A stretch of DNA of 64,000 nt, from IMG/VR virus record IMGVR_UViG_3300010885_077086, positions 1 through 64,000 of that record; one strand, 5' to 3'. The DNA comes from a virus. The notes beneath the pieces were generated by a model. It made no database searches, was not told where the DNA came from, and worked only from the letters and a program-made list of their open reading frames with translations. The position numbers were made by a program, and so were the translations under genes. Of the stretch, positions 18,103-63,485 are shown piece by piece. How positions within the stretch are numbered: position 1 is the first letter of the stretch; each line of letters starts with the position of its first letter.

Positions 18103-18651
18103 GTGAAATCACCAAAAAATAATCATCCATTTCTCAGCGAGATAAACCATAGGGTTGAGATTATAGGGGCTGCAAAATCTTTTTTAGAGAAAAATTTTGA
18201 ATTAAAAATTAATCAAGCCCTAATTGGACATCTTTTTTTCGGACAAAGAGCGTTTGCCCTACCAGGAAGAGATATAGGCCTTATGTATGGTGAAGAGACC
18301 AAATATTATCCAGAAGGATTTGAAGAAACAATTTTTCCTGGGCCAGTAGTTCTTATTGATGAAACTGGAACATCTTTTGATATTGGAATTGGTGAGATAT
18401 TAAAAGATGATATTGGATTTTATTTTAAAAATATTCTAATAAATATCAGGATAAATAAAAATGATTCACATGATATGAGTGGATTCTTTTCTGATAATTT
18501 TTTTATTCAAATCTATAAAATAGATAGCTACGGACTATTAAAAGAAGTTAATTTAACTGCTGTTTTAGAAACAAAAAAATTGTGCTCAGATTTTATCCTA
18601 AACACAATTTTTTTTAATTTAGAAAAGCTTTCCAGTTCTAGAGTTGTATGA
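18103..18651 (+). CDS. Hypothetical protein with degenerate 'LFN' tail
   Basis: 182 aa ending CSDFILNTIFFNLEKL... Confidence 0.6.
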   Translation: MKSPKNNHPFLSEINHRVEIIGAAKSFLEKNFELKINQALIGHLFFGQRAFALPGRDIGLMYGEETKYYPEGFEETIFPGPVVLIDETGTSFDIGIGEILKDDIGFYFKNILINIRINKNDSHDMSGFFSDNFFIQIYKIDSYGLLKEVNLTAVLETKKLCSDFILNTIFFNLEKLSSSRVV

Positions 18652-18861
18652 CGAAATTCCATATCTCTCTTTGTTTATTGGCTTTGGCTTCCAGCCCGCC
18701 CAATCTTCGAGATATTTCTCTGGAATCTCAGAGAGATCTTCTACCTTTCTACAATATGTAAATCTATCTTCTTCAAACTTCTCAAACCAAAATCCTCCAA
18801 AGATAAAAAACTGATCTCTTATCTCTGGACCCTTTCTTTTCTTTTTATCTAAAAGTCCCAT
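18619..18861 (-). CDS. Hypothetical protein
   Basis: 80 aa, GAGG RBS. Confidence 0.6.
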   Translation of the reverse strand: MGLLDKKKRKGPEIRDQFFIFGGFWFEKFEEDRFTYCRKVEDLSEIPEKYLEDWAGWKPKPINKERYGISSYNSRTGKLF

Positions 18862-18868
18862 TTTAACC

Positions 18869-19039
18869 TCACTCTTCTTCTGCTTTTATTAAGAATTTTT
18901 CGGAATAGCTGACTACTTTTATTATACCGGATAGGCTCTTTAAACCAACTAAATTTGTTACGCCAGAATCATCAATCCATTCAACTGTGAAAAATTCCCC
19001 AGAATAAAGAACTACATCACCTACTTTTATTTTTTTCAT
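18869..19039 (-). CDS. Small hypothetical protein (56 aa)
   Basis: MKKIKVDDVVLYSGEFFTVEWID... Confidence 0.5.
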   Translation of the reverse strand: MKKIKVGDVVLYSGEFFTVEWIDDSGVTNLVGLKSLSGIIKVVSYSEKFLIKAEEE

Positions 19040-19082
19040 TGAGAATCCCTGCTATTATTTTTTTATTTAATAGAGGAATTTT

Positions 19083-19832
19083 ATGGATAAAATAAAGAGG
19101 GGCCTTGGCTATATAAACATTATAGTATCAATTCTTATTTTAATCATTTTTAACAAAGAGCTTTTAATTCCAAAAGATGGCCCAGTCAGTATCTTAGAGG
19201 AAAAAAGAAATTTTGCAGAGAAAAGAACAGTTTTAGTTGAGTGGAAAACTGCAAGCTGGAGCGGCGTTCTTTTTGATTCAAATAATAAGTCATCAAGAAT
19301 TTTAACCATAATTCATGAAGATTCTATGAAAAAAATAAAAGAATCTGGAAATATTAGTCTAAAAATTTCAGATCGAGAAGGCAAAAAGCATACTGCATCA
19401 ATAAAGGGTTGGAATAGTTGCAATGAATTAGCAATGTTAGAAATTACAAATGGCTCAATAGCTTATAATAGCTCTTTAAACATTGAGCAAAGACAAGAAA
19501 ACCTTTCGCAGAGCTTATTTTCATTTGGCCATCCACTTGGACTAAATCTACATTATGCAGAAGGATATCTTAGTTCTACTGGAAATAAAATAAAACCATG
19601 TGGAATGATAACAAATGGCTTTTCTGGAGGAACAATTCCTGGTCAAACAGGGTCTGGGGTCTGGAATACAAATGGAGAGCTTGCTGGACTTATAGTTGCA
19701 ACATCTGCCATGCCAGTAAAGTCATATGATTCAAGTGGTAATCAGTCTGGAATATCTGTTATTCCCGTTACATTTCTTGGAAGATTTGTTCCTGCTTCAG
19801 AAATAAAAGTATTTTTAAAAAAATTACTTTAA
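19083..19832 (+). CDS. Membrane-anchored trypsin-like serine protease homolog (atypical active site)
   Basis: N-terminal TM; SGV, ILTIIH, ELAML, FGHPLG, PGQTGSGVWN..GELAGL. Confidence 0.7.
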   Translation: MDKIKRGLGYINIIVSILILIIFNKELLIPKDGPVSILEEKRNFAEKRTVLVEWKTASWSGVLFDSNNKSSRILTIIHEDSMKKIKESGNISLKISDREGKKHTASIKGWNSCNELAMLEITNGSIAYNSSLNIEQRQENLSQSLFSFGHPLGLNLHYAEGYLSSTGNKIKPCGMITNGFSGGTIPGQTGSGVWNTNGELAGLIVATSAMPVKSYDSSGNQSGISVIPVTFLGRFVPASEIKVFLKKLL

Positions 19833-20039
19833 AGGTTTTGAATTTAAATCATAAAGATAGACTATAACGTAGTATTTTAAATTTTCTGCATAATCTAAAA
19901 TATAATCTATGTCTTGTGCCTCAAAGCCTCTTATTATCTTATGCTCTTCTGAAAGTTTTAAATTTGAAAATATTTCAACTACAGCATCACACTTTGCAGT
20001 ATTTCTATAAAATCTATTATCTATCACTTTCTTTATCAT
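19824..20039 (-). CDS. Hypothetical protein
   Basis: 71 aa ORF. Confidence 0.5.
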   Translation of the reverse strand: MIKKVIDNRFYRNTAKCDAVVEIFSNLKLSEEHKIIRGFEAQDIDYILDYAENLKYYVIVYLYDLNSKPLK

Positions 20040-20351
20040 TAAATTTTAAAAAATATATTATTAGAAATAATGCATTAAAAGTAAAAAATATTGACCATGC
20101 TGTCAGAAATCTTTCTTTATCAAATATAATCCAAAATATAAAGTTAAATACTGGATTAAGTATTTCAAAAAGAAAGTCTTCCATCACATTCTATCTATCT
20201 TTATAAATTCCAAAAGATGGGCCGGAACATAAAGCTCTTCTTGCTCTATCCCTATCCACTCAATTGGATGTACTTTGTACAGGTTTCCAACTCTTTCTAA
20301 TACATTAACCAAGATCCATGATTTATCAGGACAAATATATCTAGCTTGCAT

Positions 20352-22658: not shown

Positions 22659-24173
22659 TTAATTTATTGTTTCTTTCATTATTTTAAATGCTTCTGATGG
22701 GGTTGATGGTGGTGGCTCTGTTTTTGATAGAGCATTTAGTATCGGCCTAACATCTTGCTCTGTTAGGTACTTTACTTCTTTTCCTGTAAGATGTGTCAAA
22801 TATTTGTGAATCATATCTTTATCTGGATATTTCATTACTGAGTTAGGAGATATTGTATCTTCTTTTAAGTTAATGTGGTTTGGATTTTCTGGAAGAAGTA
22901 TTCCTCTGGCAGCTAATAAGCTGCCCATTCTATCTATTATGATTCCTTTTACATTTTCTTTGTCTTGTACTTTTGTCCAACCAGATATTTCTTTTGCAAA
23001 AAGATCTGAAGACAAATTTCCTGATTCATCTTTTATATTTGAAATAAACCGTACAAGATTTCTATGTCCAAAATTAAAAGATAATCTAGTTAGAGCATCA
23101 TATAGAGACCTTGGAATTTTTGCATTACTATCTAACCCAGCATTATCAATTGCGTGATTTATTATATCATCTGCCTTTATTCTTTCTGCATCTTCTTTTT
23201 TTAATTTTTTCTTCCAGTTTATTTTTCTACCATTTTTAAGCTTAATTATGCCGGTTTTAAATTCATCTTCGGTTATTTTATGACCGTATCCTATTGTCCA
23301 TCCGGTTTTTACCCTATCTTTATCTCTTTTCCAATTAAGAGATTTATTATCATTATATGGAGTATCTTGAAATCCTTCATCTGATTTTAATCCACTTATT
23401 GCAATATCTGAAAAATCCATTTCACCAACTGTTCCAACTTCATCTACAAAATAATCATTTCCAATTCTTCTTGCAAATTTTGCCATTATCTCTTTTAGAT
23501 CTGGATAGGCAACCTGTGCTCTTTCGGTATGTGGAAATAATTCAGTTTGTTTTAGCTGTAAACCAGATTCTTCAAATGTAAGATTTTGATTATATTCTTT
23601 TAAAAACTCAATAATTATATCTTTTTTATCTTCAACCTGAATATCTGGATATATTTCTTTTATTATGGTATCGGTTTGTGTTCCAATTGGAAATTCTTTT
23701 TTTAACTTTATTAAGTTTGGTGATTCTTCAAGAGAAAAATCAGCAATTTTTTCTTCAAGAATTTCTTTTCCACCAAGATTATATCCCAATGCTCCAGCAA
23801 GGCCCAATCCCAAGAAAGCACTAAGAAGCATTGACTTTATGCTGCTCTTTATTGCCGCAGCCTCTTTTCTAAATCCAAATCCCTGTAGTGCAGCCTTAAC
23901 TGACTTTAGCTTTGATAGCCTTTTCTTTAGTGCGCTATTTCTTTCGCCATAATCAAGGTTCTTTCTGAAAAATTCTGGAACATCACCTTTTCCACCGCGA
24001 GGAAAAACATGACTATCATCCGAAGAGTTTTGGTGTTTGAAATATTCTATCTGACGAAGTCTTTTTTTTGCACCGGCCATTGTTTTATAGGTTCCCATGT
24101 TTCTTCCCTTTTCGGAAAAAACACGAAATTTTTCTTTACCAATTTGTTTTATATAAGATTCTTTGATAAACAT
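22659..24173 (-). CDS. Virion-associated lysozyme (GH24-like domain) with TM segment
   Basis: DEGFQDTPYND...WTIGYGH...YDALTRLSFNFG; LLSAFLGLGLAGALG. Confidence 0.65.
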   Translation of the reverse strand: MFIKESYIKQIGKEKFRVFSEKGRNMGTYKTMAGAKKRLRQIEYFKHQNSSDDSHVFPRGGKGDVPEFFRKNLDYGERNSALKKRLSKLKSVKAALQGFGFRKEAAAIKSSIKSMLLSAFLGLGLAGALGYNLGGKEILEEKIADFSLEESPNLIKLKKEFPIGTQTDTIIKEIYPDIQVEDKKDIIIEFLKEYNQNLTFEESGLQLKQTELFPHTERAQVAYPDLKEIMAKFARRIGNDYFVDEVGTVGEMDFSDIAISGLKSDEGFQDTPYNDNKSLNWKRDKDRVKTGWTIGYGHKITEDEFKTGIIKLKNGRKINWKKKLKKEDAERIKADDIINHAIDNAGLDSNAKIPRSLYDALTRLSFNFGHRNLVRFISNIKDESGNLSSDLFAKEISGWTKVQDKENVKGIIIDRMGSLLAARGILLPENPNHINLKEDTISPNSVMKYPDKDMIHKYLTHLTGKEVKYLTEQDVRPILNALSKTEPPPSTPSEAFKIMKETIN

Positions 24174-29355: not shown

Positions 29356-29356
29356 T

Positions 29357-33353: not shown

Positions 33354-33889
33354 TCCCTAGTATCAACTTTTTCAAATTTAAATAGAGAGTCCATATTATA
33401 ATAGGTTGTATCTTGGATAAAATCGCTTTTATTTTCTCTAAGAAAAACCTTTGTATGGATTGAATAGAGTCCAGATGAAGGCGGAATACCTACGGTAAAC
33501 CTATACTCAACCTCTCCTCCACCATCTACATATGAATATTTCCAATCTGGAGGAAAAAGCGGTGTCTTATCTACTGCTTTAATTGGAAATTCTACCGCTT
33601 TAATACCATCAATATCTATTATCTTATATTCAGAATTAGATGGAAGATGTCTTACAAAAAACTCTGCTTTATCAAAATATAGTCTAACTGACCCGTTATT
33701 CTTTACCCTAACCCAAACAATAGCCACCAATCCTGTATTGGATCTTCTAATGGTTTTTATACCTGACTCTAGTTTTGGCTTTGGGTAAAGCTCTCTTTTT
33801 AAAAGAAAGTCTTTTAAGATCCAGATACCGGCAGCAAAAGAAGTAATTGTTGGAAAAAGCACCTTTGGATCAGAGAATATCTCTATCAT
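33350..33889 (-). CDS. Membrane-anchored hypothetical protein
   Basis: N-terminal TM, beta-rich domain. Confidence 0.6.
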   Translation of the reverse strand: MIEIFSDPKVLFPTITSFAAGIWILKDFLLKRELYPKPKLESGIKTIRRSNTGLVAIVWVRVKNNGSVRLYFDKAEFFVRHLPSNSEYKIIDIDGIKAVEFPIKAVDKTPLFPPDWKYSYVDGGGEVEYRFTVGIPPSSGLYSIHTKVFLRENKSDFIQDTTYYNMDSLFKFEKVDTRD

Positions 33890-34218
33890 GTTAGTTTTAG
33901 CTCCGACAGCCTAAATAATATCCAATCCATGCATTGTGGCGTGTTTTCTTGGGCATAGGCAAACCATTCTTGCTTTGATGACTCAATCATTTCTTCATCT
34001 TTGAAGGTGTAGAATATTAGTTCATTTCCAGAGGCATGATAATGCTCTAAAAGCCAAATTATCTCTTTTCCATCCCACCACCCAAGAGAAGCAACATCAG
34101 AAGTTCCTTTTATTGGTATAAAAAAGAACATTCTGTGCTCTGGAAAATCAAAGCTATCGCTATCCCAAAAATTCCAAGGTAATGGCAAAGGCTCTAAGAT
34201 TGAGTCAGGCATTACCAT
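33886..34218 (-). CDS. 'WxLF(N)' tail family protein
   Basis: QENTPQCMDWILFRL. Confidence 0.65.
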   Translation of the reverse strand: MVMPDSILEPLPLPWNFWDSDSFDFPEHRMFFFIPIKGTSDVASLGWWDGKEIIWLLEHYHASGNELIFYTFKDEEMIESSKQEWFAYAQENTPQCMDWILFRLSELKLT

Positions 34219-43004: not shown

Positions 43005-43346
43005 TTGAAGCCAACACCATTTACAATAGGTGGTAAAAAATATTACCTTCATGATGTTATAAGTATAACAAATAGTTATGCTGATGTTAACTTTTTTGAA
43101 TTTCAAATTTTAAAACCAGGAGAATATGAGCCAGATAAGATTTTAGTTTGGGTATCTGGCAAAACAAAACACGAAAGAAAGTGGACTTGGTTTATATATT
43201 TGAAAAGAGAAGGCCCAATAAAGGGAATATCATATCATTACTCTGACATAATATCTCCAGAAAGAGACACGGGGTTGTTTTTAAGGTACGTCAGAAGAAA
43301 AACTCCAGATGCCATTCCACATATCCTTTTTAATTATTTGATTTAG
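43005..43346 (+). CDS. 'LFN' tail family protein
   Basis: FLRYVRRKTPDAIPHILFN. Confidence 0.6.
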   Translation: MKPTPFTIGGKKYYLHDVISITNSYADVNFFEFQILKPGEYEPDKILVWVSGKTKHERKWTWFIYLKREGPIKGISYHYSDIISPERDTGLFLRYVRRKTPDAIPHILFNYLI

Positions 43347-44460: not shown

Positions 44461-44816
44461 TCTGAAGCCTCCTGCCTAATCTCATCAAAAATAGGCCAAG
44501 CGTTTAGAAGATCGTCGCGGATTCTTTTTACTACAAGATTATTCCTTCCGCCGATATTCCACTCCTTAATTTTCTCTACAGGAAGCCCATCGTCTCCAAG
44601 ATAATTTTTGCCATTCTTCCAATTATAAAGCGTTCCAACCTGACCATCTTCCCACTTGATAATCCACTCTGCATCAATCTTATATCCATCACTAGTGGTT
44701 GGCTCACCATATTTAGTTACGATAGTCTTGTAGTCTACGCTGACATAACCCTGTAGACAGGTTCCATCGGCATCGGCTTGATTAATTGACTTAATTCTTG
44801 GCATCTTAAGCTCCAA
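44457..44816 (-). CDS. Conserved phage protein
   Basis: LQGY...GEP...KIDAEW...YNWK...WNIGG. Confidence 0.65.
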   Translation of the reverse strand: MELKMPRIKSINQADADGTCLQGYVSVDYKTIVTKYGEPTTSDGYKIDAEWIIKWEDGQVGTLYNWKNGKNYLGDDGLPVEKIKEWNIGGRNNLVVKRIRDDLLNAWPIFDEIRQEASE

Positions 44817-45264
44817 TATTAAAAAGAATATGCTTTACAAAAAAGTCTCGCAGCTCTGGTGTGGCCTCTTCCATGAATTGGTCTGGGCCAGATTGCTTTT
44901 TGATAAATTCATCATTAGGAATACGGTGTGGATGAACCAAAGTTGTACCATATTGAGGGTCGAGAGAGACACCACTTATAAAATAAAGAGCACCAATACC
45001 AGTCCTATCTCTCCAATCGGTATAGTTCCTATCGGAAAGAACAAGGTTGACAGACTCAGATAGTCGCTTTTCTCCAGAAGAAACCCAAAAAGCCTCCATA
45101 CCACAATCAAGAATCTGATGAATTTTTGGCCCATCATATTTCTTTGATAGAGTATGGGTAAAACTTAAAGTTTGACGCCAATGGCCGCTACACTTTCCCC
45201 AATTATTTCCAAGCTCCATAAGAATTTCGTTGTAGTTAGAAAGGACTAGGTGTGGCCTTGCCAT
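44806..45264 (-). CDS. 'LFN' tail family protein
   Basis: FMEEATPELRDFFVKHILFNI. Confidence 0.6.
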   Translation of the reverse strand: MARPHLVLSNYNEILMELGNNWGKCSGHWRQTLSFTHTLSKKYDGPKIHQILDCGMEAFWVSSGEKRLSESVNLVLSDRNYTDWRDRTGIGALYFISGVSLDPQYGTTLVHPHRIPNDEFIKKQSGPDQFMEEATPELRDFFVKHILFNIGA

Positions 45265-52046: not shown

Positions 52047-52367
52047 TCATAGGTGGGCCACGTTAAATAATACCCATTCCAAAACATCCGGAGAATTCTC
52101 CTTTACAAAATCAATAAAGTATTCTTTTGTAGAAGATAACCGCGAACAATGGCTAAATCTTACAGAATAAGATGTTTCTTGAACAGAGCCATTGTCTGTT
52201 ACGACCCAAACTGCCGATGGAAATATTCCATCGAAAAAGTAATATTCAACCTTATTTACGATCCATCCGTTATCCTCTCCCTCTTTGTATCTCGTTACAT
52301 AAATGCCGCGAGGGAAAATTTTATCAGAATATAATTGATCGTAAGTTATTTCTTCTATCTTTTGCAT
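52047..52367 (-). CDS. 'EWxLFN' tail family protein
   Basis: FIDFVKENSPDVLEWVLFN. Confidence 0.65.
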   Translation of the reverse strand: MQKIEEITYDQLYSDKIFPRGIYVTRYKEGEDNGWIVNKVEYYFFDGIFPSAVWVVTDNGSVQETSYSVRFSHCSRLSSTKEYFIDFVKENSPDVLEWVLFNVAHL

Positions 52368-54385: not shown

Positions 54386-54757
54386 TTATACTCTATCCGA
54401 CGAATTCCAAAGATCCTGATTAAAAAGAAGCCACTCGGTTGCTGGATGATTTATATCTATTGTACGACTACAAAATTCATCAAGGTTAGTGTAGAGAAGC
54501 TGGCCTCTTTCGTATGGAATATTTGAAGCAAGATAGGTTGCATTTAAGGCAACCATCTTTAGATTTTTATCAGAAAAAATAAAAATTGCAAAATATGGAA
54601 TAGAATCATTTAACCAAAAATAAAGCTTATTAGACTCTAGAGAATCATCATACTGACAAAAATCAGCATAATAAAGCCCCGTTGGACTATGATTTTTTCC
54701 ATGATAAATTGCCTCAAGTGAGTCTCGAAACAATCCAAGATAAACTGGCTCAATCAT
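54386..54757 (-). CDS. 'EWxLFN' tail family protein (tandem copy)
   Basis: HPATEWLLFNQDLWN. Confidence 0.65.
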   Translation of the reverse strand: MIEPVYLGLFRDSLEAIYHGKNHSPTGLYYADFCQYDDSLESNKLYFWLNDSIPYFAIFIFSDKNLKMVALNATYLASNIPYERGQLLYTNLDEFCSRTIDINHPATEWLLFNQDLWNSSDRV

Positions 54758-54779
54758 GATTCCAAAGATCCTGATTAAA
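54404..54779. repeat. 21-bp direct repeat (54404-54424 and 54759-54779)
   Basis: ATTCCAAAGATCCTGATTAAA, encoding FNQDLWN in both tandem genes. Confidence 0.85.
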
Positions 54780-55133
54780 TAGTAGCCAGCCTGTTGCAGG
54801 GTGTTGGTTTAAAAGGAATCGATCTATAAATGTCTGAATGGGAACATAGACTAGATTATTTTCAGTGGCTAAATACATTTTAGGCATAATTAGATTGTTG
54901 TTAATGGCGATTTTTATGGATGAATAATGATCTATTTCTCTTGGCATATAATATATAATAAATTCAACAAAAGAATCTCCGGCATAAAACCAAATCTCAT
55001 CAAACTTACCATTTGGATTATATTTGGATGAAGGAGTTTCAATCAATGCATGATATAAGCCAACTTTAGAAATACAAGTTATTGCATAATAGCTGCTGCT
55101 AAATGTTCCGATGTTTATTGGTTCCATCTTCAT
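54750..55133 (-). CDS. 'WxLFN' tail family protein (tandem copy)
   Basis: HPATGWLLFNQDLWN. Confidence 0.65.
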   Translation of the reverse strand: MKMEPINIGTFSSSYYAITCISKVGLYHALIETPSSKYNPNGKFDEIWFYAGDSFVEFIIYYMPREIDHYSSIKIAINNNLIMPKMYLATENNLVYVPIQTFIDRFLLNQHPATGWLLFNQDLWNHD

Positions 55134-56419: not shown

Positions 56420-56453
56420 TTTAAATTCCTTGAATTTATAATACTTAAAATTA

Positions 56454-57395
56454 CTAAGGATCTTGCTCTTGAATTTGCTTTTGCATTCTTGCCTCAGCAC
56501 GTTGAGCCTTTCTTTTTTCATTTCTATTTTTATTATTTTTATCCCTCAAGGTCTTCTTTCTTTCTGCGAGAGCAATAAGTTCTTCTTCTGATAAGAGATT
56601 TTTCTTTGCCCTATTTTGCTCAGCAACTCTTTTTTGTGCCTCACTCATTCTTTTTCTTGCTTCATCAGACCTCTTTGTTGGTCCATTCAAAATACGGTTT
56701 TGTCGCATGGTATTTGCCATTTTTTTCAAAGTTTCTTCAGAATGAGGAGGTCTGGCTAGCTTTTTTTCTCTAATTTTATTTTTAGTTTCTTCGGTATGAC
56801 TGCTTCCAATTCTATTTTTGGAAGCTTCCTTTGCCATTAGTAACAGTTCTCCAAGTGCGGCCGGATTTTCTGCTAGTCTTTTTTTCTGAGCAATGCTCAT
56901 ATTCAATCTTGCTTCGTCAGAGAATTCTGCTGGAGGATTTTCTATATTTCTCTTTATTTGGGCAGCACTCATATTTCTTTTTGCCTCATCGGAGTGCTTT
57001 CTTCCAGAATTAATCAATCTTAATTTTTCTCTTGTCTCTTCTGAAACTATTCTGCCACGCATCTTTTGCTTTTGCTCATCTGTTCTTTTTGTTCCAGCCA
57101 TCGATCTAACTATTAGACCAACATTAAAACCACTATCTGTGGCATCAAGAGTATCTGCCCAATATTGTTCCTTTTCCGTTAAGACTTCTTGAGAGCATAT
57201 TTCTATGATCTCAAAACTAAAAACATCACCACCATATTTTGTATAAGAATTCTGTAATTTTTGGTTGTAATGTTCATTTCTCTCTAGCATATTTTTATGA
57301 GCTATAAATCTTTTAAAGATATTAATGCTCTGTCCAACGTAAAATTGGTCATCCTTTCTTATGCAATATATACCGCAAAGCTTGCTCTTCTTCAT
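56454..57395 (-). CDS. GIY-YIG homing endonuclease with NUMOD3 repeats
   Basis: GIYCI...YVGQS...R...E; repeats HSDEAKRNMS, HTEETKNKIR, HSEETLKKMA. Confidence 0.9.
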   Translation of the reverse strand: MKKSKLCGIYCIRKDDQFYVGQSINIFKRFIAHKNMLERNEHYNQKLQNSYTKYGGDVFSFEIIEICSQEVLTEKEQYWADTLDATDSGFNVGLIVRSMAGTKRTDEQKQKMRGRIVSEETREKLRLINSGRKHSDEAKRNMSAAQIKRNIENPPAEFSDEARLNMSIAQKKRLAENPAALGELLLMAKEASKNRIGSSHTEETKNKIREKKLARPPHSEETLKKMANTMRQNRILNGPTKRSDEARKRMSEAQKRVAEQNRAKKNLLSEEELIALAERKKTLRDKNNKNRNEKRKAQRAEARMQKQIQEQDP

Positions 57396-57461
57396 AATAA
57401 TATGAAGAAATATTAGCATAAAATTACTTGATTATTAGCATATTATTGAATAGTCTGGTTC

Positions 57462-57728
57462 TTAAGCATTTTCTTCCTCCGTGTCGCAATCTTGCCACTT
57501 TTCTTCTTCGTAATTCCAATGGCGATTATCGTAAATATCTATTCCAAGAAAATAAGACATTACCTCAAAGGTAAAGCTGATTCCGGCATGATGAGTTTTT
57601 CGAGTCCATTTTAGTGACAGCTCAAAATAACTCCATCCATCCTTAAATTTATCAAGCTGGACTTCAAGGTACTTATTTTTAAGTAGCGGAAAATACTTGC
57701 GATGAAATAGTGGAACACAAAAGTTCAT
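57462..57728 (-). CDS. Conserved phage protein
   Basis: HAG...IYDNRHWNYE. Confidence 0.6.
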   Translation of the reverse strand: MNFCVPLFHRKYFPLLKNKYLEVQLDKFKDGWSYFELSLKWTRKTHHAGISFTFEVMSYFLGIDIYDNRHWNYEEEKWQDCDTEEENA

Positions 57729-57752
57729 TGTAAATCCTCCCGCTACGCCTAG

Positions 57753-57780
57753 AATATAAGCACAGAATACGCCTAGTCAA
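57753..57780 (-). promoter_or_regulatory. Early promoter
   Basis: TTGACT-N16-TATATT with GTGC. Confidence 0.65.
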
Positions 57781-57804
57781 TCGGCCTTCTAAAATATTTT
57801 ACCG

Positions 57805-58011
57805 CTAATTAAAGAAAAGTGTAAAGATTGCTTCTTCTTCCTTCTCTGGAGAAAGACCCATGATAGAAGGCTCTGCCTCAATCACCTTTTGTGGTAGAAT
57901 AACATCTACTTCAAGGATTTCTGCCCTAATCGAATCAACGTAAAATTCAAGTGGGTCAAGAAAATCATTCTTCATTGGATACCTCTTCGGGCTTTGGGTT
58001 GGCTGTTTCAA
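57805..58011 (-). CDS. Hypothetical protein (true start probably the internal MKNDF)
   Basis: ORF track. Confidence 0.5.
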   Translation of the reverse strand: MKQPTQSPKRYPMKNDFLDPLEFYVDSIRAEILEVDVILPQKVIEAEPSIMGLSPEKEEEAIFTLFFN

Positions 58012-58324
58012 ACTCTGACTTTGCTACAAAAAGCTTTGCAAACTTGCCTTGGTTTAGGCTAAATTCAATGTTATCGATCTTAATGAGTTGATTGGAGGGA
58101 ACTCCATTTTCAGCATACTGCACAGTCAGGTAGGACTGATAATTATATTTGTCCCTAAATCCCTTATAATAAACCCTAACTGTCTTTGGACAATTCTTTA
58201 TCTCTGTTACAAGGCTTAGAGATAGGATTGGTGTTCTATAATCTACTCTGGCAATTACAATTGTATCTCCGACAACTACTTCTTCGCCCTTTAGATCAAT
58301 TAGCTTAAACTTTGCATCCTGCAT
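57965..58324 (-). CDS. Hypothetical protein
   Basis: 119 aa. Confidence 0.6.
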   Translation of the reverse strand: MQDAKFKLIDLKGEEVVVGDTIVIARVDYRTPILSLSLVTEIKNCPKTVRVYYKGFRDKYNYQSYLTVQYAENGVPSNQLIKIDNIEFSLNQGKFAKLFVAKSEFETANPKPEEVSNEE

Positions 58325-58648
58325 TTAGGACTCCTTCACGCTAATTATCATAACATCATGCTTGCAGTCTTTTGTCTGACAGGCACCATAGGCTAAAAAC
58401 TTTGCGTTACCAGACCACTGATTAACAACTTCTATAATCTCGGATGGAAGCTTTCCTTTTGATAGAGCCTTCTCTTGATCTGGTGTAAAATAAAATGAGC
58501 CTGACTTATTTAGTGAGACTGACTTTCCCTCTCCCCACTTTGGAAGCGGAATGGAAAGATCAATTATAGCAGAGGAAACTTCGCCACAACCCGATGTTGT
58601 GATCGGATTACCATTCTTATCAGAACCCTGACAAACAAACCTAAACAT
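58325..58648 (-). CDS. Hypothetical Cys-containing protein
   Basis: Start re-called at MFRFV behind AGGAG. Confidence 0.6.
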   Translation of the reverse strand: MFRFVCQGSDKNGNPITTSGCGEVSSAIIDLSIPLPKWGEGKSVSLNKSGSFYFTPDQEKALSKGKLPSEIIEVVNQWSGNAKFLAYGACQTKDCKHDVMIISVKES

Positions 58649-58682
58649 AAAGCTCCTTATAGCAGGACTCCCCGCTACGGAT

Positions 58683-58710
58683 AATATAAGCACCGTGAGC
58701 GGGGAGTCAA
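58683..58710 (-). promoter_or_regulatory. Early promoter inside an inverted repeat
   Basis: TTGACT-N16-TATATT with CGGTGC. Confidence 0.7.
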
Positions 58711-58728
58711 CAGGCTGTGTTTAAAAGA

Positions 58729-58965
58729 TCAATCGCCAGTGTGACGGAAGCCTTCCGTTGAACAAGTAACCGGAGGAACGTATGATGGTAGACTTGGAAA
58801 AAGAGGAAGCTGAGTTGGCAAATTTGGAGTTACCTTTGTCAAAACAAGATTAAGATGACTCTTAATCTCTTCAACCTGTCGCTCATTCAAGTCCTTTGGG
58901 CCATTTAGATGTTGAGAAAGCTCAAGATATCCCTGAAGCCAAAAAACAAACTGATCGCTAGTCAT
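58729..58965 (-). CDS. Conserved phage protein
   Basis: FVFWLQGYLEL...HLNLV..KVTP. Confidence 0.65.
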   Translation of the reverse strand: MTSDQFVFWLQGYLELSQHLNGPKDLNERQVEEIKSHLNLVLTKVTPNLPTQLPLFPSLPSYVPPVTCSTEGFRHTGD

Positions 58966-58966
58966 T

Positions 58967-59299
58967 TCAGCCTCCTACCTTTTCTAGCTCAGAGTTTAGC
59001 CAAGCATCAAGAGCACCCTTTGCCATATTGCCAGACTTACGAGCAACCTCTACTCCATTGTGAAATAGAACCATAGTTGGAACGCCCATTATCTTTAAGG
59101 ATTGGGCGGCAGATGGACTATCATCAATATCAAGATCAAACACAGGAAGAGAGGCTAACCTCTCTTCAGCTACTTTTTCTAGTGTTGGTGCCAATGCTCT
59201 ACAGGGATTACACCAGGTAGCACCAGCCTTTACAAGAGCAGTTTTATTAGTTCCAATAGAATTCTTTAGAGTTTTATCAGTTGCAGTTTTAACAAACAT
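58967..59299 (-). CDS. trxA: Thioredoxin
   Basis: WCNPC, GVPT. Confidence 0.9.
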   Translation of the reverse strand: MFVKTATDKTLKNSIGTNKTALVKAGATWCNPCRALAPTLEKVAEERLASLPVFDLDIDDSPSAAQSLKIMGVPTMVLFHNGVEVARKSGNMAKGALDAWLNSELEKVGG

Positions 59300-59308
59300 T
59301 TTATCTCC

Positions 59309-59746
59309 TTATTTTAGCTCAAAACCGTGATCTTCTTTAAGTTTGCTTTTAATATGACAGGCACTGCAGATGTTTCTAATCCAGCCCTTTGTCTGATAGG
59401 TGGCTTTATCTCCACAGGTCTCACAAATCTTGCCAGACATCGCTTCTGCCATATGAATTAATCCATCGGTATAGTCATCACCACCAGATCTGTAGAAGCG
59501 AAGTGTTCCAAATTTTTCTTTAACCTGCGTTGCAATCAGCTGAAGAGCTTCTTTTGCTTCATCCGTTTTAAGATCCCTACTTTTAAAATCAATATGACCT
59601 TGGATATTTCTGCATAATACATCTAGAAGATCATACCATCCATCGCCACACTCTATACCATAGGTTGTATATGGCTCGGAAAGATCGGATGTTCCAAATA
59701 TTTTAGGATACTTATCTTTTAAGGCCTTTTCTTTTTCTGGTGACAT
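59309..59746 (-). CDS. Conserved phage protein
   Basis: ECGDGW...QVKEKFGTLRFY...CETCG. Confidence 0.75.
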   Translation of the reverse strand: MSPEKEKALKDKYPKIFGTSDLSEPYTTYGIECGDGWYDLLDVLCRNIQGHIDFKSRDLKTDEAKEALQLIATQVKEKFGTLRFYRSGGDDYTDGLIHMAEAMSGKICETCGDKATYQTKGWIRNICSACHIKSKLKEDHGFELK

Positions 59747-59760
59747 AATATTATACCTTG

Positions 59761-60024
59761 TTAATCCGTTGGGTTTATTGATAGTAAATATATTGGATCT
59801 TTTATGTCTAGATAGGCGCTACAGTAATGGCCTGTTTCATCGCCCAATCCATCTCTGCCATTAACACCGTTACAGATAAGACATTCGTCTGCATAAGTTC
59901 CACCAACATCATTTAGCCATGGATTTTCTTTTGCAAAGCTGGCGCTAGAAACAATCATTTTATGATGCGATTGGTAGTGGTGACCACAAATACATTGTCC
60001 AGAAAAATACTGCTTAGTAAGCAT
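59761..60024 (-). CDS. Cys/His-rich hypothetical protein
   Basis: CICGH...H. Confidence 0.55.
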   Translation of the reverse strand: MLTKQYFSGQCICGHHYQSHHKMIVSSASFAKENPWLNDVGGTYADECLICNGVNGRDGLGDETGHYCSAYLDIKDPIYLLSINPTD

Positions 60025-60054
60025 ATTTTGTTGCTTCTTCTTTTTCTGGGAACA

Positions 60055-60561
60055 TTACTCTACCTTGGCGTCAATTTTGTTATCTTCTAGAATCTGCTTC
60101 TTTAGCTCATAAGAATGTCTGTAGTCTGTCTTGCCATTCTGATGGTAGAAAGCAATATAGGATGAGAAGTAGCTTTTTTCTACAGCATGATTCTCAACAA
60201 AGAACCAGGTTCCTTCTGCTAGATTTTTCTGAATCTCATCAAAGAGAGAGATAGGATCTTCGTCATAGTAATCCTCATCTTCCTCTTCTTCATCTAGCTC
60301 TTCGTCACCCTCTTCAGAAGATTCTTCATTAAGTGCTGAGGCTCTGATCTCTGGACCGGAATCACAGAATCCATCACCAATAAATTTGAAGGTTCTATCG
60401 CCATATTCATAGAGCTTGATATAGGCATCGCTAGCTAGATAGCCAGACTGAAGATTTCCTTCCTCGGCTAGAAGATCAACGATCTTATTAATATACTCTA
60501 CTGCTGCATCATCTTTTAGAATGAACTTTGAGGTGGTATAGCGATCAACTGTAACAGACAT
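60055..60561 (-). CDS. Acidic hypothetical protein
   Basis: 168 aa, AGGAG RBS. Confidence 0.65.
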   Translation of the reverse strand: MSVTVDRYTTSKFILKDDAAVEYINKIVDLLAEEGNLQSGYLASDAYIKLYEYGDRTFKFIGDGFCDSGPEIRASALNEESSEEGDEELDEEEEDEDYYDEDPISLFDEIQKNLAEGTWFFVENHAVEKSYFSSYIAFYHQNGKTDYRHSYELKKQILEDNKIDAKVE

Positions 60562-60689
60562 TGTTATTTCTCCTATGGTTTAAATTGAGCAATAAAGGCA
60601 GATGTGGCACAGATATCAATTCCCTCTGAACACCTTGATATTATTATCAGCCATGATAAATTATACGCCTAGCTGGAGATTGAACGAGA

Positions 60690-61055
60690 TTAATCTTTTA
60701 GCTGCTTCTTTCTTTCTTCAAATCGCTTCTGCCAACGCTTAACATCGTCAAGAAGATGAAGGTTTTCTGTCTTGTAATTCCCAAGGTGACCAAAGAATAG
60801 ATGGCAGTTTACGCCATACTTCTTTGTCTCGCAGAGTGAGATTAAATTGGAAGGCTCCAGCTCAAGCTCTGGTGCAATATGAAATGGCTTTATGTGATGA
60901 ACTTCGACATCAACATTACAGCCACAAACAGCACAGACCGGAAACTCTTTTAGATGGGCTTCTCTTACTTTTGGCCAATCTTTAGATCTTTTTTGGCTCC
61001 AGTCTCTCTTTTTGTCAATAAGGACTTCTTTTATTTCTTTTATTTTAGATATCAC
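60690..61055 (-). CDS. Small HNH endonuclease
   Basis: CAVCG, VHHIKPF, NLISLC...NCH. Confidence 0.85.
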   Translation of the reverse strand: MISKIKEIKEVLIDKKRDWSQKRSKDWPKVREAHLKEFPVCAVCGCNVDVEVHHIKPFHIAPELELEPSNLISLCETKKYGVNCHLFFGHLGNYKTENLHLLDDVKRWQKRFEERKKQLKD

Positions 61056-61079
61056 AACTATATGCTATGATATTAGTAA

Positions 61080-61280
61080 CTACCTTGTAGTTCCAACTCT
61101 TCCAATCTTTCCATCAGAAAGAATCTTTTTTATATCCTTTCCAAGATCTTCCACTCCAGCTCGAAACGGTTCTATAAAAACGAACGCGGCTGCAACGATT
61201 GCAATAACAATTACTGAGATTAGTAGCATATATTCTACGGTGGATTGACCCTCTTCGTCTTTTAAAAGCTCTTTTAACAT
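61080..61280 (-). CDS. Flp (type IVc/Tad) pilin
   Basis: DEEG|QSTVEYMLL prepilin site, E+5/Y+6, hydrophobic helix; 66 aa. Confidence 0.85.
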   Translation of the reverse strand: MLKELLKDEEGQSTVEYMLLISVIVIAIVAAAFVFIEPFRAGVEDLGKDIKKILSDGKIGRVGTTR

Positions 61281-61537
61281 TATTTTATCTCATCAACAGA
61301 CTGATCAATCTCTGGATTCCAGTCAGTTCTCAATTTGATGAGAGGATTAAAGTTTGCCTTCTTTCTCTCTAAGACAAGCTGTGACTGCGGCTTCTGAAGA
61401 ACGCCTTCTATCTCTAGCTCTTCAAAGTCAATCTCAGTTTTATTTTTATAAACTATTTTTGCTTCACCATCTTCGGCAGCATGAGCAGCATGTGGCGGAA
61501 GAAGGATTAGGGATAAAATTAAAGCTTTTCTTAGCAT
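61280..61537 (-). CDS. CglF/GltF-like adventurous gliding-motility protein
   Basis: Signal peptide (AHA) then YKNKTEIDFEELEIEGVLQKP...RKKANFNPLIKLRTDWNPEIDQS. Confidence 0.7.
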   Translation of the reverse strand: MLRKALILSLILLPPHAAHAAEDGEAKIVYKNKTEIDFEELEIEGVLQKPQSQLVLERKKANFNPLIKLRTDWNPEIDQSVDEIK

Positions 61538-61570
61538 TGAGCCTCCAGCAATATATAAATATATTACCAG

Positions 61571-61936
61571 CTACTCCTTGCTAGACTCTAGCCAATTTTC
61601 AATGTCTTCATCTGACATTGTTTGAAGCTGCTCAATTGTAAGAGAGTTAAGATCTCTCTTTCCGTCCCAAGGAGCCTTTTCATAAGGCCCATCAATATCA
61701 AAAATGGGATACTTCATACAATCTCTCAATATTCTTTCTAGATCCAGCTTTAGACCGTCTTTAACAGCCTCCTCTGTATCTCCCTCCTCAGCATCAGCAT
61801 AAGATTCAACAGGCTCTTTGGTGCAAGAATGTGGAGCAAGAGGATCTTTATCATAATAAAGCTCTCCAACACCATAAAATCTATGCTCTGGTTTTAGTTT
61901 ATTTCTGTATCTTACAATTCCATAACGCCAACGCAT
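61571..61936 (-). CDS. Conserved phage protein
   Basis: MRWRY...ELYYD. Confidence 0.6.
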   Translation of the reverse strand: MRWRYGIVRYRNKLKPEHRFYGVGELYYDKDPLAPHSCTKEPVESYADAEEGDTEEAVKDGLKLDLERILRDCMKYPIFDIDGPYEKAPWDGKRDLNSLTIEQLQTMSDEDIENWLESSKE

Positions 61937-61944
61937 TATTCCTC

Positions 61945-62127
61945 CTAGCAGCTAACTCTTGGATCTGAAAGACTATCCTCTCTTGACTTTATATCGGCGG
62001 ATCTCAAAATAGACTCCCTTGAAAATGAGATTATAGATCCATCTTCAAGAATTCCTTTTATAGTAGGAGTATTCTCTGAGGTTTCGTCAATTTCTACTGT
62101 AAGAATTACCTTTACTTTCTTTTTCAT
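61945..62127 (-). CDS. Hypothetical protein
   Basis: 60 aa. Confidence 0.5.
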   Translation of the reverse strand: MKKKVKVILTVEIDETSENTPTIKGILEDGSIISFSRESILRSADIKSREDSLSDPRVSC

Positions 62128-62130
62128 TTT

Positions 62131-63189
62131 TCACCCGTTGTATTTGCAAAATTCATCATAAGCAATAGATAGCGGCTCGATATTTAGCATGGCGCTAGAC
62201 AGAACATGGCGAAGCTTTGGATGATTGATTGCAATATCCTTTCTTGACATGCCAGATCTGATCAACTCTTTTGTCTCTTCCCACTCGGATTCTACCGATG
62301 CCTTATATTTTACCCATCGTTCATCAATGGCATCAATCTTTTGATTTATCTCAGCAAAAAATTCATCTGGAATACCATCCATTGAGAACTTTCCTGCTTC
62401 CTTTCTTTGCATCCAAAGATTAAAAATTCCAGAGTCAGATAGGCCGGTGACTACCTTATGAAGCTGAACATAAGTTTCGGTCTTAATCTTGCAGCGTTTT
62501 CCCTTAATATTTTTAAGAACGACACCTTCAAAGTTTGGATTAAGCTCCTTCTTGATTAGATCATAAGAAAACTCTTCTGCGGTCCAAAGCTTTGGCATTT
62601 GGAATCCAAAGCCGTCTGCATAAGACCTGATCTCTTCTTCGGTTGCTTCAGCGGCAGATTGAGTATCAACAATTCCAAGAAGGATTAGGGAATCCTTCTC
62701 ATAATTTCTTACAACATTGATATTTGATGGGCCAACCAACTCAAAAAGATAGGTCTTTTTGTGATCCGCACCAGAAATAAAGCGTTTGCTGAGAAGATTT
62801 GGAGCGGAGAGAGCCTGGTCTGATGCCCAGCTTCCACGAGTAATAGTGTGCCAAGATCCTTCCCACCAAAATGCTACAATTAGCGATCCATCTTCCTTAG
62901 TCCAAATCTCTGAGATTTTATCTGGAGAGAATTCTGAAGATGAGGCTCCAAGCTCTTCAAAATTAAAGAACTTCTCAAATGGTCTGGCAACAACCTTTCC
63001 TTCATTGGAGATTACGAGGCCACGACAAATAGAATTGACTTCGTTAAAAGCTTTTGAGAACTGAGTTTGCTCAGTGTAGTTATAAATAGAAAGCGGGAGG
63101 TTTGAGTGGGGAATTCTGCGAACTCTACCCAACTCAACCTCTACCGCTAAGTTTGCCAAAAATTCTGCGCTTAACATTAGTGTAGCCAC
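62131..63189 (-). CDS. T4 Rnl1-like RNA ligase
   Basis: CRGL, RPFEKFFN, KEDGS, TRGS, FEL, EGVV, KIK. Confidence 0.88.
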   Translation of the reverse strand: MATLMLSAEFLANLAVEVELGRVRRIPHSNLPLSIYNYTEQTQFSKAFNEVNSICRGLVISNEGKVVARPFEKFFNFEELGASSSEFSPDKISEIWTKEDGSLIVAFWWEGSWHTITRGSWASDQALSAPNLLSKRFISGADHKKTYLFELVGPSNINVVRNYEKDSLILLGIVDTQSAAEATEEEIRSYADGFGFQMPKLWTAEEFSYDLIKKELNPNFEGVVLKNIKGKRCKIKTETYVQLHKVVTGLSDSGIFNLWMQRKEAGKFSMDGIPDEFFAEINQKIDAIDERWVKYKASVESEWEETKELIRSGMSRKDIAINHPKLRHVLSSAMLNIEPLSIAYDEFCKYNG

Positions 63190-63485
63190 TCCGAATTAAA
63201 TAGAAACCATTCCATATACTCTGGATATTCTTTAGAAATATGTGATACAAACTCTTCTTGGGTACATCTCAAATCCCCAATATAAAAAAAGCTTTTATAA
63301 CCTATTCTATCCTGCGGGCTGTCTATTTGCCACAAAATAGAATAATCATGATCTGGAGGCTTATATACTCTAATATGTGATAGAGAAATTACTGAGCTAT
63401 TTCTAATGAACACTTTATTTCCAACGTTTTCTTTTGCAATATCATTCCAATGCTCTAGGCCATTCAGTGTTATAAGCTTAATCAT
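63177..63485 (-). CDS. 'EWxLFN' tail family protein
   Basis: FVSHISKEYPEYMEWFLFNSEWL. Confidence 0.65.
   Translation of the reverse strand: MIKLITLNGLEHWNDIAKENVGNKVFIRNSSVISLSHIRVYKPPDHDYSILWQIDSPQDRIGYKSFFYIGDLRCTQEEFVSHISKEYPEYMEWFLFNSEWLH

What the first reader, a model, noticed from the sequence alone, without database searches (positions are those of the whole stretch)
18103..63485. Eight dispersed proteins share one C-terminal tail (F..F....P...[ED]W.LFN) on mostly unrelated N-termini
Seen: 33886 (TPQCMDWILFR), 43005 (TPDAIPHILFN), 44806 (TPELRDFFVKHILFN), 52047 (SPDVLEWVLFN), 54386 (HPATEWLLFN), 54750 (HPATGWLLFN), 63177 (YPEYMEWFLFN) and, weaker, 18103 (CSDFILNTIFFN). All are 100-180 aa and aromatic-rich, occur on both strands, and lie between unrelated enzymes. 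Inference: a variable-head / constant-tail family docking on one shared partner, for example substrate adaptors for the phage ClpP, AAA+ ATPases or GroEL, or a diversified anti-defence panel.
Basis: partly seen in the sequence, partly recalled or inferred. Interest (0 to 1): 0.8.

Follow-up and report, generated by a model that had tools for sequence, protein, structure and literature searches.

The report
Expanded small phage protein family
Six of the eight small proteins are diverged copies of one undescribed 100-130-residue phage protein; their shared "tail" is predicted to be the helical core of one compact fold, not a docking tag, and related uncultured freshwater and groundwater phage contigs carry the gene in tandem arrays of up to 19 copies per stretch.

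Summary
The motif is real for six of the eight ORFs: 33886, 43005, 52047, 54386, 54750 and 63177. A strict form of it occurs 6 times against 0.0045 expected in shuffles. ORFs 44806 and 18103 are not supported by profile comparison (probability about 1%). Two more members lie outside the window, at genome 66046-66447 and 67562-67942.

The N-termini are not unrelated. Each subfamily profile aligns over 79-102 columns to the rest of the family with its own subfamily removed (probability 95.7-99.4%). Two AlphaFold models built from independent alignments (pLDDT 93 and 91) give the same compact single domain. The "tail" forms its last three helices.

The family has no match in Pfam, PHROGs, NCBIfam, PADLOC, PDB, BFVD or 50,697 GenBank phages. 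About 40 cluster representatives exist in metagenomes. In groundwater and lake contigs the gene forms tandem arrays of 7-19 copies with ATGA stop/start overlaps. Orthologues are under purifying selection (dN/dS 0.07-0.13).

My reading is an undescribed, heavily expanded single-domain accessory family, probably a panel of binders of host or defence proteins. That function is inferred, not shown.

The parts
63177..63485 (-). Family member, 102 aa, the closest in the window to the array-type consensus. The conserved C-terminal helices are encoded at 63180-63266. A TAATG stop/start overlap joins it to the Rnl1-type RNA ligase gene downstream.
   Evidence: hhalign against the independent 98-sequence array profile gives 99.4%, E 2e-21, 89 columns. 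AF2 gives pLDDT 93.2 and pTM 0.83 for a single domain. Junction sequence.
54750..55133 (-). Family member, 127 aa, upstream copy of a tandem pair. Conserved C-terminal module at 54753-54845. ATGA overlap with the class II aaRS gene upstream. Absent from the related contig G001.
   Evidence: BLASTP to 54386 gives 30% identity over 126 aa, E 1.9e-15. Family HMM E 7.6e-20 over the full length. In G001 the aaRS gene directly abuts the 54386 orthologue. Junction.
54386..54757 (-). Family member, 123 aa, downstream copy of the tandem pair. Conserved module at 54389-54490. The 8-nt overlap ATGATTGA with 54750 is the same junction type as in the metagenomic arrays.
   Evidence: Subfamily against the rest of the family: 98.1%, E 1e-13, 102 columns. 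AF2 with the independent alignment A7 gives pLDDT 91.1, pTM 0.85 and the same element order as the 63177 model. dN/dS 0.13 against the G001 orthologue.
52047..52367 (-). Family member, 106 aa, between a DEDD exonuclease gene (TAATG overlap) and an AAA ATPase gene. Conserved module at 52050-52133.
   Evidence: Subfamily against the rest: 99.4%, E 1.9e-21, 101 columns. Orthologue at 91% identity in G001 with dN/dS 0.07.
43005..43346 (+). Most divergent member, 113 aa, pI 9.4, TTG start, H in place of the conserved W. It is a solitary + strand gene among - strand genes. Conserved module at 43263-43343.
   Evidence: Subfamily against the rest of the family (own subfamily excluded): 95.7%, E 1e-8, 79 columns. 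dN/dS 0.08. pI. A promoter-like site at 42914-42941 is a consensus match only.
33886..34218 (-). Family member, 110 aa, LFR instead of LFN, net charge -12. Conserved module at 33889-33981. ATGA overlap with the downstream gene 33350-33889.
   Evidence: Subfamily against the rest: 98.6%, E 1e-15, 80 columns. dN/dS 0.12. Junction.
44806..45264 (-). It is a separate, well-conserved 152-aa family whose last ~20 residues resemble the motif with a 4-residue insertion.
   Evidence: hhalign of A6 against the family gives probability 0.7-1.6% over 13-17 tail columns only. No link to the 43005 subfamily. Twelve homologues at 61-92% identity.
18103..18651 (+). Not a member.
   Evidence: Tail HMM E 33. 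hhalign probability 0.8-1.4%.

Best explanation
The six ORFs, plus two just outside the window, are old, strongly diverged paralogues of one undescribed small phage protein family of about 90-135 aa.

Shown or directly computed:
- Each protein is predicted to be a single compact alpha+beta domain with the order b1-a1-b2-b3-b4-b5-b6-a2-a3-a4.
- The shared 'tail' is helices a2-a4. Its conserved positions are aromatic or aliphatic residues (F, W, L, F, W/L) and helix N-cap patterns.
- The N-terminal M-I-x-[DE]-P-I strand and the alternating hydrophobic positions of b2, b4 and b5 are also conserved.
- Helix a1, strand b3 and the b3-b4 and b4-b5 loops vary freely in sequence and length.
- Conservation acts on the protein, not the DNA.
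- Orthologues are under purifying selection.
- The genes are translationally coupled to their neighbours.
- In related uncultured freshwater and groundwater phage contigs the gene is amplified into head-to-tail arrays of 7-19 copies.

Inferred:
- The tail is conserved because it is the scaffold of the fold, not because it docks on a common partner.
- The family works as a repertoire of stand-alone binding modules. The constant scaffold presents variable surfaces, and each paralogue binds and blocks or redirects a different host protein or a variant of one. Defence or toxin effectors are the likeliest targets, by analogy with other expanded accessory-gene panels.

I put about 0.85 on the structural and evolutionary part, and about 0.35-0.4 on the binder or anti-host function.
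For: Family reality. A profile from external sequences only hits all six window members at E 9e-13 to 5e-23. An exhaustive hmmsearch of 1.84 billion representatives finds 41 hits, nearly all 91-130 aa, with matches ending at or near the C-terminus. The only longer hit is one probably spurious 2,240-aa protein.

Single domain. Subfamily-against-rest hhalign gives 79-102 aligned columns at 95.7-99.4%. The AF2 model of 63177 (alignment A4) has pLDDT 93.2 and pTM 0.83. The AF2 model of 54386, from the independent alignment A7, has pLDDT 91.1 and pTM 0.85 with the same order of elements. Against 48,161 chains both models pick the same two weak top hits over the same chain range: 5m9f_A at Z 4.8 and 9euf_5 at Z 4.3 and 4.7. 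That indicates they share one fold.

Tail as core. The per-position conservation map is. pLDDT of the tail blocks is 95-98 in the 63177 model and 88-96 in the 54386 model.

Protein-level selection. Among 32 paralogues with identical E-W-L-L-F-H-P-E-W, every synonymous codon class is used. dN/dS is 0.07-0.13.

Expansion. L010 holds 19 copies in 11.2 kb, L024 15, L025 10, L012 9. The three pieces of contig ERZ1292625.1044 (L013, L024, L030) hold 27 together. ATGA-type overlaps are shown.

Turnover. 54750 is absent from the close relative G001, which has two other members instead.

Precedent from the literature. Expanded or arrayed small accessory proteins that act as inhibitors in conflicts include T4 internal proteins (PMC3012670), SUKH immunity arrays (PMC3113570) and tifA amplification in T4 (PMC9391042).
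Against: - No functional evidence of any kind exists. There is no characterised homologue, no fused domain and no known fold.
- Orthologue pairs show ordinary purifying selection, not positive selection. The paralogues are old (about 20-30% identity), so a current arms race is not demonstrated.
- The tail also carries conserved acidic positions (E77, E92 and E/D99 in 63177 numbering).
- The two models could not be superposed directly.
- The membership of 43005 rests on profile comparison alone.
- The host is unknown and both this record and G001 are fragments, CheckV about 40% and 37% complete.
Confidence: 0.6

Rival explanations
1. One reading: variable, unrelated heads fused to a constant C-terminal docking tail that delivers them to one shared partner, such as the phage ClpP (48098-48787), the AAA ATPase (50484-51854) or GroEL (9681-11300).
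For: The C-terminal ~30 residues are by far the best conserved segment, and pairwise BLAST sees little else. Head-only profile comparisons are mostly insignificant. Conserved acidic residues in the tail could make a common surface. ClpP, AAA and GroEL genes are present.
Against: Full-length profile alignments give 79-102 columns. Both AF2 models fold the tail into helices of one compact domain at pLDDT 88-98. The N-terminal strand and core strand positions are conserved too. Residues after the motif vary in length from 3 to 10. No fused or tail-only forms were found, apart from one 36-aa fragment and one probably spurious 2,240-aa hit, among 1.84 billion representatives.
Confidence: 0.08
2. 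A phage-borne immunity or antitoxin repertoire in the strict sense, analogous to bacterial polyimmunity loci. Each paralogue would neutralise one variant of a polymorphic toxin or abortive-infection nuclease. The RNA-repair context hints at RNA- or tRNA-targeting effectors. This is a specific sub-case of the best explanation.
For: The proteins are small, mostly acidic alpha+beta proteins in tandem arrays of divergent paralogues. Tandem arrays and lineage-specific expansions of divergent SUKH immunity genes show the same pattern (PMC3113570). Rnl1-type RNA ligase genes are flanked by family genes in the window and in L011, L014, L023 and L025. A metallophosphatase, an exoribonuclease and a class II aaRS sit beside window members.
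Against: No SUKH or other immunity Pfam family is matched by any of 60 members. No toxin gene is linked. The adjacency to Rnl1 may be plain synteny among related phages. The complex prediction gave no verdict and is not counted either way.
Confidence: 0.15
3. Virion or tail-fibre-associated modules, for example exchangeable knob-like tips or assembly accessories.
For: The best, though weak, structural hits of both models are C-terminal domains of receptor-binding or tail-fibre proteins. These are phage K gp144, the phi812 baseplate, R2 pyocin fibre, Mu tail fibre and two Acinetobacter tailspikes, at Z 3.7-4.8. From my own knowledge, T4 RNA ligase 1 (gp63) also promotes tail-fibre attachment, and Rnl1 homologues neighbour the family.
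Against: Z below 5 is under the tool's stated noise level of 7-8 for unmatched models. The genes sit among nucleic-acid and protein-metabolism genes, not structural genes. Fifteen to 27 alternative fibre tips per contig would be without precedent.
Confidence: 0.07
4. A chance motif, or non-coding ORFs.
For: None beyond the shortness of the motif.
Against: Six matches against 0.0045 expected. dN/dS 0.07-0.13. About 40 cluster representatives and more than 140 array copies elsewhere.
Confidence: 0.01

Closest known systems
T4-type internal proteins (IPI, IPII, IPIII and relatives) with a conserved capsid-targeting sequence (PMC3012670)
   Same: A set of small, highly diverse phage accessory proteins that share one short conserved segment. 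They are known to act as inhibitors of host defence enzymes.
   Different: The T4 tag is N-terminal and serves encapsidation, and the bodies are otherwise a highly diverse set. Here the conserved segment is C-terminal and predicted to be folded helices of the domain core, and the bodies are homologous over their full length. No evidence of encapsidation.
SUKH (Smi1/Knr4, Syd) immunity proteins in tandem arrays and polyimmunity loci (PMC3113570, PMC3482391)
   Same: Stand-alone small alpha+beta proteins, with tandem arrays of divergent paralogues and lineage-specific expansions. These are interpreted as a repertoire against variant toxins. SUKH has also been recruited by DNA viruses.
   Different: No sequence match: 0 of 60 members hit any SUKH Pfam model. 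SUKH structures did not appear among the listed fold hits. The arrays here are in phage-like contigs, not next to toxin genes, and are longer: 7-19 copies per fetched stretch against up to six in a SUKH tandem array.
Segmental amplification of the anti-ToxN gene tifA in phage T4 (PMC9391042)
   Same: Tandem multiplication of a small phage counter-defence gene within the accessory genome.
   Different: The tifA copies are recent, identical amplifications selected for dosage. The copies here are old and only about 20-35% identical, which implies diversification rather than dosage.
Multigene families of large eukaryotic DNA viruses, such as ASFV MGF110/360/505 and poxvirus host-range families (from my own knowledge; not checked in the library)
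   Same: Tandem arrays of diverged paralogues in variable genome regions, with copy number differing between close relatives.
   Different: Unrelated proteins, hosts and virus lineages. This is an analogy only.

Membership tests
This undescribed family (signature M-I-x-[DE]-P-I ... S-[KR]-E-x-F ... P-[DE]-x-[FL]-[ED]-W-h-L-[FW]-[HN]-x-[ED]-h-[LW]) | Profile match over most of the length to family members outside the protein's own subfamily | tested here: met
   Met for 33886, 43005, 52047, 54386, 54750 and 63177: 95.7-99.4% over 51-102 columns. The genome copies at 67562 and 66046 are also hit by the family HMM.
This undescribed family, applied to ORFs 44806-45264 and 18103-18651 | The same profile match | tested here: not met
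   44806: probability 0.7-1.6%, 13-17 tail columns. 18103: probability 0.8-1.4%. The structure of 44806 was not predicted, so very distant kinship is not excluded.
This undescribed family | A common fold of order b-a-b5-a3 with the C-terminal motif in helices a2-a4 | tested here: met
   Two models from independent alignments (63177, 54386) have the same element order and the same top structural neighbours. The other four members were not modelled.
SUKH / SMI1_KNR4 immunity superfamily | Match to a SUKH Pfam model | tested here: not met
   None of 60 family members matches at E 0.1 or better.
SUKH / SMI1_KNR4 immunity superfamily | SUKH fold (solved examples 2PRV, 3FFV, 2ICG per PMC3113570) | tested here: inconclusive
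   Not among the listed hits of either model in PDB Foldseek or VIA-wide searches. The best Z is 4.8, to unrelated chains.
Cleavable or unstructured targeting tags (T4 CTS-type; ssrA-like C-terminal degrons or adaptor tails) | The conserved segment is a terminal, exposed peptide that is separable from the folded body | tested here: not met
   In silico only. The tail is predicted helical at pLDDT 88-98 and is part of a domain with pTM 0.83-0.85. Three to ten variable residues follow the motif.
Any curated family (Pfam-A, PHROGs v4, NCBIfam 20, PADLOC 2.0, PDB sequences) | Significant profile match | tested here: not met
   Searches gave only scattered single hits at E above 1e-3 (one at 9.9e-4 to a nematode GPCR family).

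The most novel reading that the evidence does not exclude
A previously unrecognised protein fold that a lineage of uncultured freshwater and groundwater large phages has amplified into arrays of 15-27 diverged copies per contig. It would work as a combinatorial repertoire of inhibitors against variable host defence or toxin effectors, a phage counterpart of bacterial polyimmunity loci. The dispersed copies in this window would be the remnant or seed of such arrays.
Probability: 0.3. Interest if true: 0.8.

Novelty: new variant of a known kind. Interest (0 to 1): 0.55.

Why it matters
Phage accessory genomes are the main reservoir of undiscovered counter-defence and host-takeover proteins, and expanded paralogue panels are a hallmark of molecular conflict. 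This family is compact and confidently modelled. It matches no curated family or solved fold. It is copied 8 times in this 81-kb fragment and up to 19 times in 11 kb elsewhere, which is rare in prokaryotic and phage genomes (PMC3113570 calls such arrays of linked paralogues relatively rare in bacteria).

If the paralogues are specific inhibitors, each copy points to a host target, and the family would give a new scaffold for binder evolution. For the scan itself the result is a correction. A 'constant tail on unrelated heads' seen by eye can be the best-conserved core helices of one fast-diverging domain.

Tried and rejected
- Complex prediction of 63177 with the adjacent Rnl1 ligase gave no verdict (score 0.00, controls not run). 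It is not used as evidence either way.
- DNA-level cassette or recombination-junction idea. The tail plus the next gene's M-I-x-D-P start might have been a conserved DNA repeat. This is rejected: synonymous sites vary freely among 32 paralogues with identical peptides.
- Head-only hhalign between subfamilies gave mostly insignificant results (best E 8e-4). Full-length subfamily-against-rest comparisons superseded it.
- A link between 44806 and the 43005 subfamily was rejected (probability 2.4%).
- Fold searches found nothing:
  - PDB Foldseek: best E 0.07-0.11, TM about 0.35.
  - VIA-wide: best Z 4.8.
  - BFVD: best E 0.07.
  - ESM Atlas: nothing usable.
  - PDB sequence profile: nothing.
- tblastn of two members against 50,697 GenBank phage records gave no match. 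blastn of 6 kb of the window found only two short matches.
- IMG/VR holds only one related contig. GTDB genomes hold only one 1.5-kb MAG contig.
- The sigma-70 promoter scan was not above shuffles: 45 sites against 37 +/- 7.
- The first literature search gave nothing relevant.
- Tools that could not be used:
  - The genome search draws no relatives for a virus record and does not hold the metagenome records.
  - The search for related loci found no conserved stretch in alignment A3.

Full report
**Observation**

The record is a virus contig of 80,775 bp, of which the window is the first 64,000 bp. CheckV rates it about 40% complete and GC is about 38%.

The strict motif P-x(3-5)-[WH]-h-L-F-[NR] lies within the last 25 residues of 6 of the 241 ORFs of at least 60 aa. 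In 2,000 shuffles the mean was 0.0045 and the maximum 1.

Leave-one-out HMMs built on the 28-residue tail alone recover five members as top hit among 438 ORFs, at E 3.7e-7 to 2.5e-3: 52047, 54386, 54750, 33886 and 63177. 43005 only ties for top at E 0.67.

44806 carries a 4-residue insertion in the motif, and 18103 has only an 'FFN'. Neither is recovered. Profile-profile comparison gives them probabilities of 0.7-1.6%.

A larger profile finds two more members in the same genome beyond the window's end: 67562-67942 (E 4.9e-10) and 66046-66447 (E 2.4e-3).

**Is it one family or a shared tail on unrelated heads?**

Pairwise BLAST sees little outside the last ~30 residues. The exception is the tandem pair 54386/54750, at 30% identity over 126 aa. 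Head-only profile comparisons are mostly insignificant.

External data change the picture.
- A word-seeded search returned 59 metagenomic proteins, all but one 106-132 aa.
- An exhaustive hmmsearch of 1.84 billion cluster representatives returned 41 hits. Nearly all are 91-130 aa, and the match runs to or nearly to the C-terminus.
- Many of these share an N-terminal M-I-x-[DE]-P-I as well as the C-terminal S-[KR]-E-E-F-I-D ... Y-P-D-x-F-E-W-L-L-F-[HN]-P-E-W-L.

I then compared each window subfamily with the rest of the family, with its own subfamily removed:

| Subfamily | Probability | Aligned columns |
|---|---|---|
| 54386/54750 | 98.1% | 102 |
| 52047 | 99.4% | 101 |
| 33886 | 98.6% | 80 |
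| 43005 | 95.7% | 79 |
| 63177 (against an independent array-only profile) | 99.4% | 89 |

**Structure**

AlphaFold2 on 63177 with the 60-sequence family alignment gives pLDDT 93.2 and pTM 0.83. The element order is b1-a1-b2-b3-b4-b5-b6-a2-a3-a4.

AlphaFold2 on 54386 used a separate alignment holding only its own LFNQDLWN-type relatives. It gives pLDDT 91.1 and pTM 0.85, with the same order plus a short insert before b6.

I could not superpose the two models. Against 48,161 PDB chains, however, both pick the same two top hits over the same residues. 5m9f_A 247-337/339 scores Z 4.8 with both models. 9euf_5 scores Z 4.3 and 4.7. Several lower hits are also shared. I take this as indirect evidence that the two models share a fold.

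No hit approaches significance in PDB or BFVD. The ESM Atlas gives nothing usable. The fold is therefore unmatched, though not proven new.

**Why the tail is conserved**

A per-position map over 236 sequences shows the following, in 63177 numbering:
- The highest information is at W93, L95, F96, H/N97, P88 and F79.
- Then come E77, E92 and E/D99.
- Conserved positions also occur at P4, in b2, at F/W52 and I54 (b4), and at Y67 and I69 (b5).

The polar conserved residues fall in S-x-x-E, P-[DE]-x-x-E and [NH]-P-E patterns. From general knowledge of helix capping, I read these as N-caps of a2, a3 and a4.

Variable positions are a1, b3 and the b3-b4 and b4-b5 loops.

The tail is predicted helical at pLDDT 95-98 in the 63177 model and 88-96 in the 54386 model. 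I infer that it is the scaffold of the fold. Burial could not be computed because coordinates are not exposed.

**Distribution and anatomy**

No member matches Pfam, PHROGs, NCBIfam, PADLOC or PDB sequences. None of 50,697 GenBank phage records encodes a relative.

IMG/VR holds one related contig, G001 (72 kb, about 37% complete). It has orthologues of four window members plus two others in tandem, and it lacks 54750.

A metagenome scan gave 29 loci from Hainich groundwater (0.1 um fraction) and from other metagenome records whose names and other genes suggest freshwater lakes. Scanning them with the family HMM shows head-to-tail arrays:

| Locus | Copies |
|---|---|
| L010 (11.2 kb) | 19 |
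| L024 | 15 |
| L025 | 10 |
| L012 | 9 |
| L013, L014, L017 | 7 each |

The three pieces of one 36-kb contig (L013, L024, L030) hold 27 copies together.

Genes abut with ATGA-type stop/start overlaps. The window's tandem pair shows the same junction type (ATGATTGA). The junctions with the aaRS gene, the exonuclease gene, the RNA ligase gene and gene 33350-33889 are ATGA or TAATG overlaps.

Conservation is at protein level. Among 32 paralogues with identical E-W-L-L-F-H-P-E-W, all synonymous codons are used.

dN/dS between this genome and G001 is 0.07-0.13 for family members, like their neighbours.

Members are mostly acidic (pI 4.3-5.7), except 43005 at pI 9.4. They are aromatic-rich, at 16-18% against 9.6%.

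**Context**

Pfam matches of the genes around the family members:

| Coordinates | Match |
|---|---|
| 9681-11300 | GroEL-type chaperonin |
| 17086-18045 | UvdE |
| 22659-24173 | lysozyme |
| 35116-36396 | phosphoglucomutase |
| 37572-38702 | DNA ligase |
| 48098-48787 | ClpP |
| 49211-49960 | S51 peptidase |
| 50484-51854 | AAA ATPase |
| 52367-52885 | DEDD exonuclease |
| 53735-54370 | metallophosphatase |
| 55130-56521 | class II aaRS |
| 56454-57419 | GIY-YIG endonuclease |
| 62131-63189 | Rnl1-type RNA ligase |

Rnl1 homologues are flanked by family genes in four other loci as well. This may be synteny.

A complex prediction of 63177 with Rnl1 gave no verdict.

**Mechanism**

Shown:
- one homologous family;
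- a single predicted domain;
- a conserved core with variable a1 and loops;
- protein-level purifying selection;
- translational coupling;
- massive tandem expansion;
- copy turnover between relatives.

Inferred:
- The proteins are stand-alone binding modules whose constant scaffold presents variable surfaces. The repertoire serves to bind different host proteins or variants, most plausibly defence or toxin effectors.
- The inference rests on analogy with T4 internal proteins (PMC3012670), SUKH immunity arrays (PMC3113570, PMC3482391) and tifA amplification (PMC9391042).
- An enzymatic role seems unlikely. The polar conserved positions are less conserved than the hydrophobic ones, and H and N interchange at position 97.
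- I give the structural and evolutionary statement about 0.85 and the binder or anti-host function about 0.35-0.4.

**Rivals**

- The docking-tail model: about 0.08.
- A strict immunity or antitoxin repertoire tied to RNA-targeting effectors: about 0.15. This is a sub-case of the main reading.
- A virion or fibre-associated role, suggested only by sub-threshold fold hits to fibre domains: about 0.07.
- Chance: about 0.01.

**Novelty and verdict**

The family is undescribed and its fold unmatched. Arrays of this size are unusual for phage-like contigs. The kind of thing, an expanded and fast-diverging accessory protein family, is known.

The modular head/tail interpretation is not supported. 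The finding is worth following for the arrays rather than for the tail.

I can confirm eight by profile.

Noticed in passing
window 63615-63905 (-); L010:3715-5349; L012:3640-5486: A second, unrelated small-protein family (about 90-140 aa, with motifs Y-x-I/L-Y/R-H-R and L-E-I-V-E-V) has one copy directly upstream of 63177. It has five tandem copies each in L010 and L012, sandwiched between arrays of the main family. This suggests a shared hyperplastic region.
   Followed up: partly
window 5363-6424 (-): This 353-aa protein matches phrog_1211, annotated '2-aminooxy adenylosuccinate synthetase', at E 4e-63. From memory I take that annotation to correspond to PurZ-type enzymes. A PurZ-type enzyme would suggest 2-aminoadenine (Z) DNA, but an ordinary PurA homologue was not excluded.
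   Followed up: no
window 52367-63189: RNA-handling genes cluster around the family members. They are an Rnl1-type RNA ligase (62131-63189), a calcineurin-like phosphoesterase (53735-54370), an Rv2179c-like 3'-5' exoribonuclease (52367-52885) and a class II Asp/Lys/Asn-type aaRS (55130-56521). Rnl1 is embedded in family arrays in L011, L014, L023 and L025.
   Followed up: partly
window 56454-57419 (-) and 54750-55133 (-): The GIY-YIG/NUMOD3 homing-endonuclease gene that overlaps the start of the aaRS ORF has no counterpart in the close relative G001. Neither does family copy 54750. There the aaRS gene directly follows the orthologue of 57462-57728 and directly abuts the 54386 orthologue.
   Followed up: partly
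window 44806-45264 (-): This is a separate, strongly conserved 152-aa family: 12 homologues at 61-92% identity, with an invariant C-terminal P-E-L-x-D-F-F-V-K-H-I-L-F-N. dN/dS is 0.30 against G001. Its end mimics the motif, but kinship is undetectable.
   Followed up: yes
window 48098-48787 (-), 49211-49960 (+), 9681-11300 (-): The phage carries ClpP, an S51 (dipeptidase E-like) peptidase and a GroEL-type chaperonin. Several large ORFs have no Pfam or PHROG match: 27379-29355, 29357-30817 and 39495-41714.
   Followed up: no
window 50429-50755, 54257-54523, 55757-56044, 61354-61581: ORFs that overlap real genes, on the opposite strand or in another frame, show dN/dS of 2.3-7.6 against G001. That marks them as non-coding shadows.
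   Followed up: no
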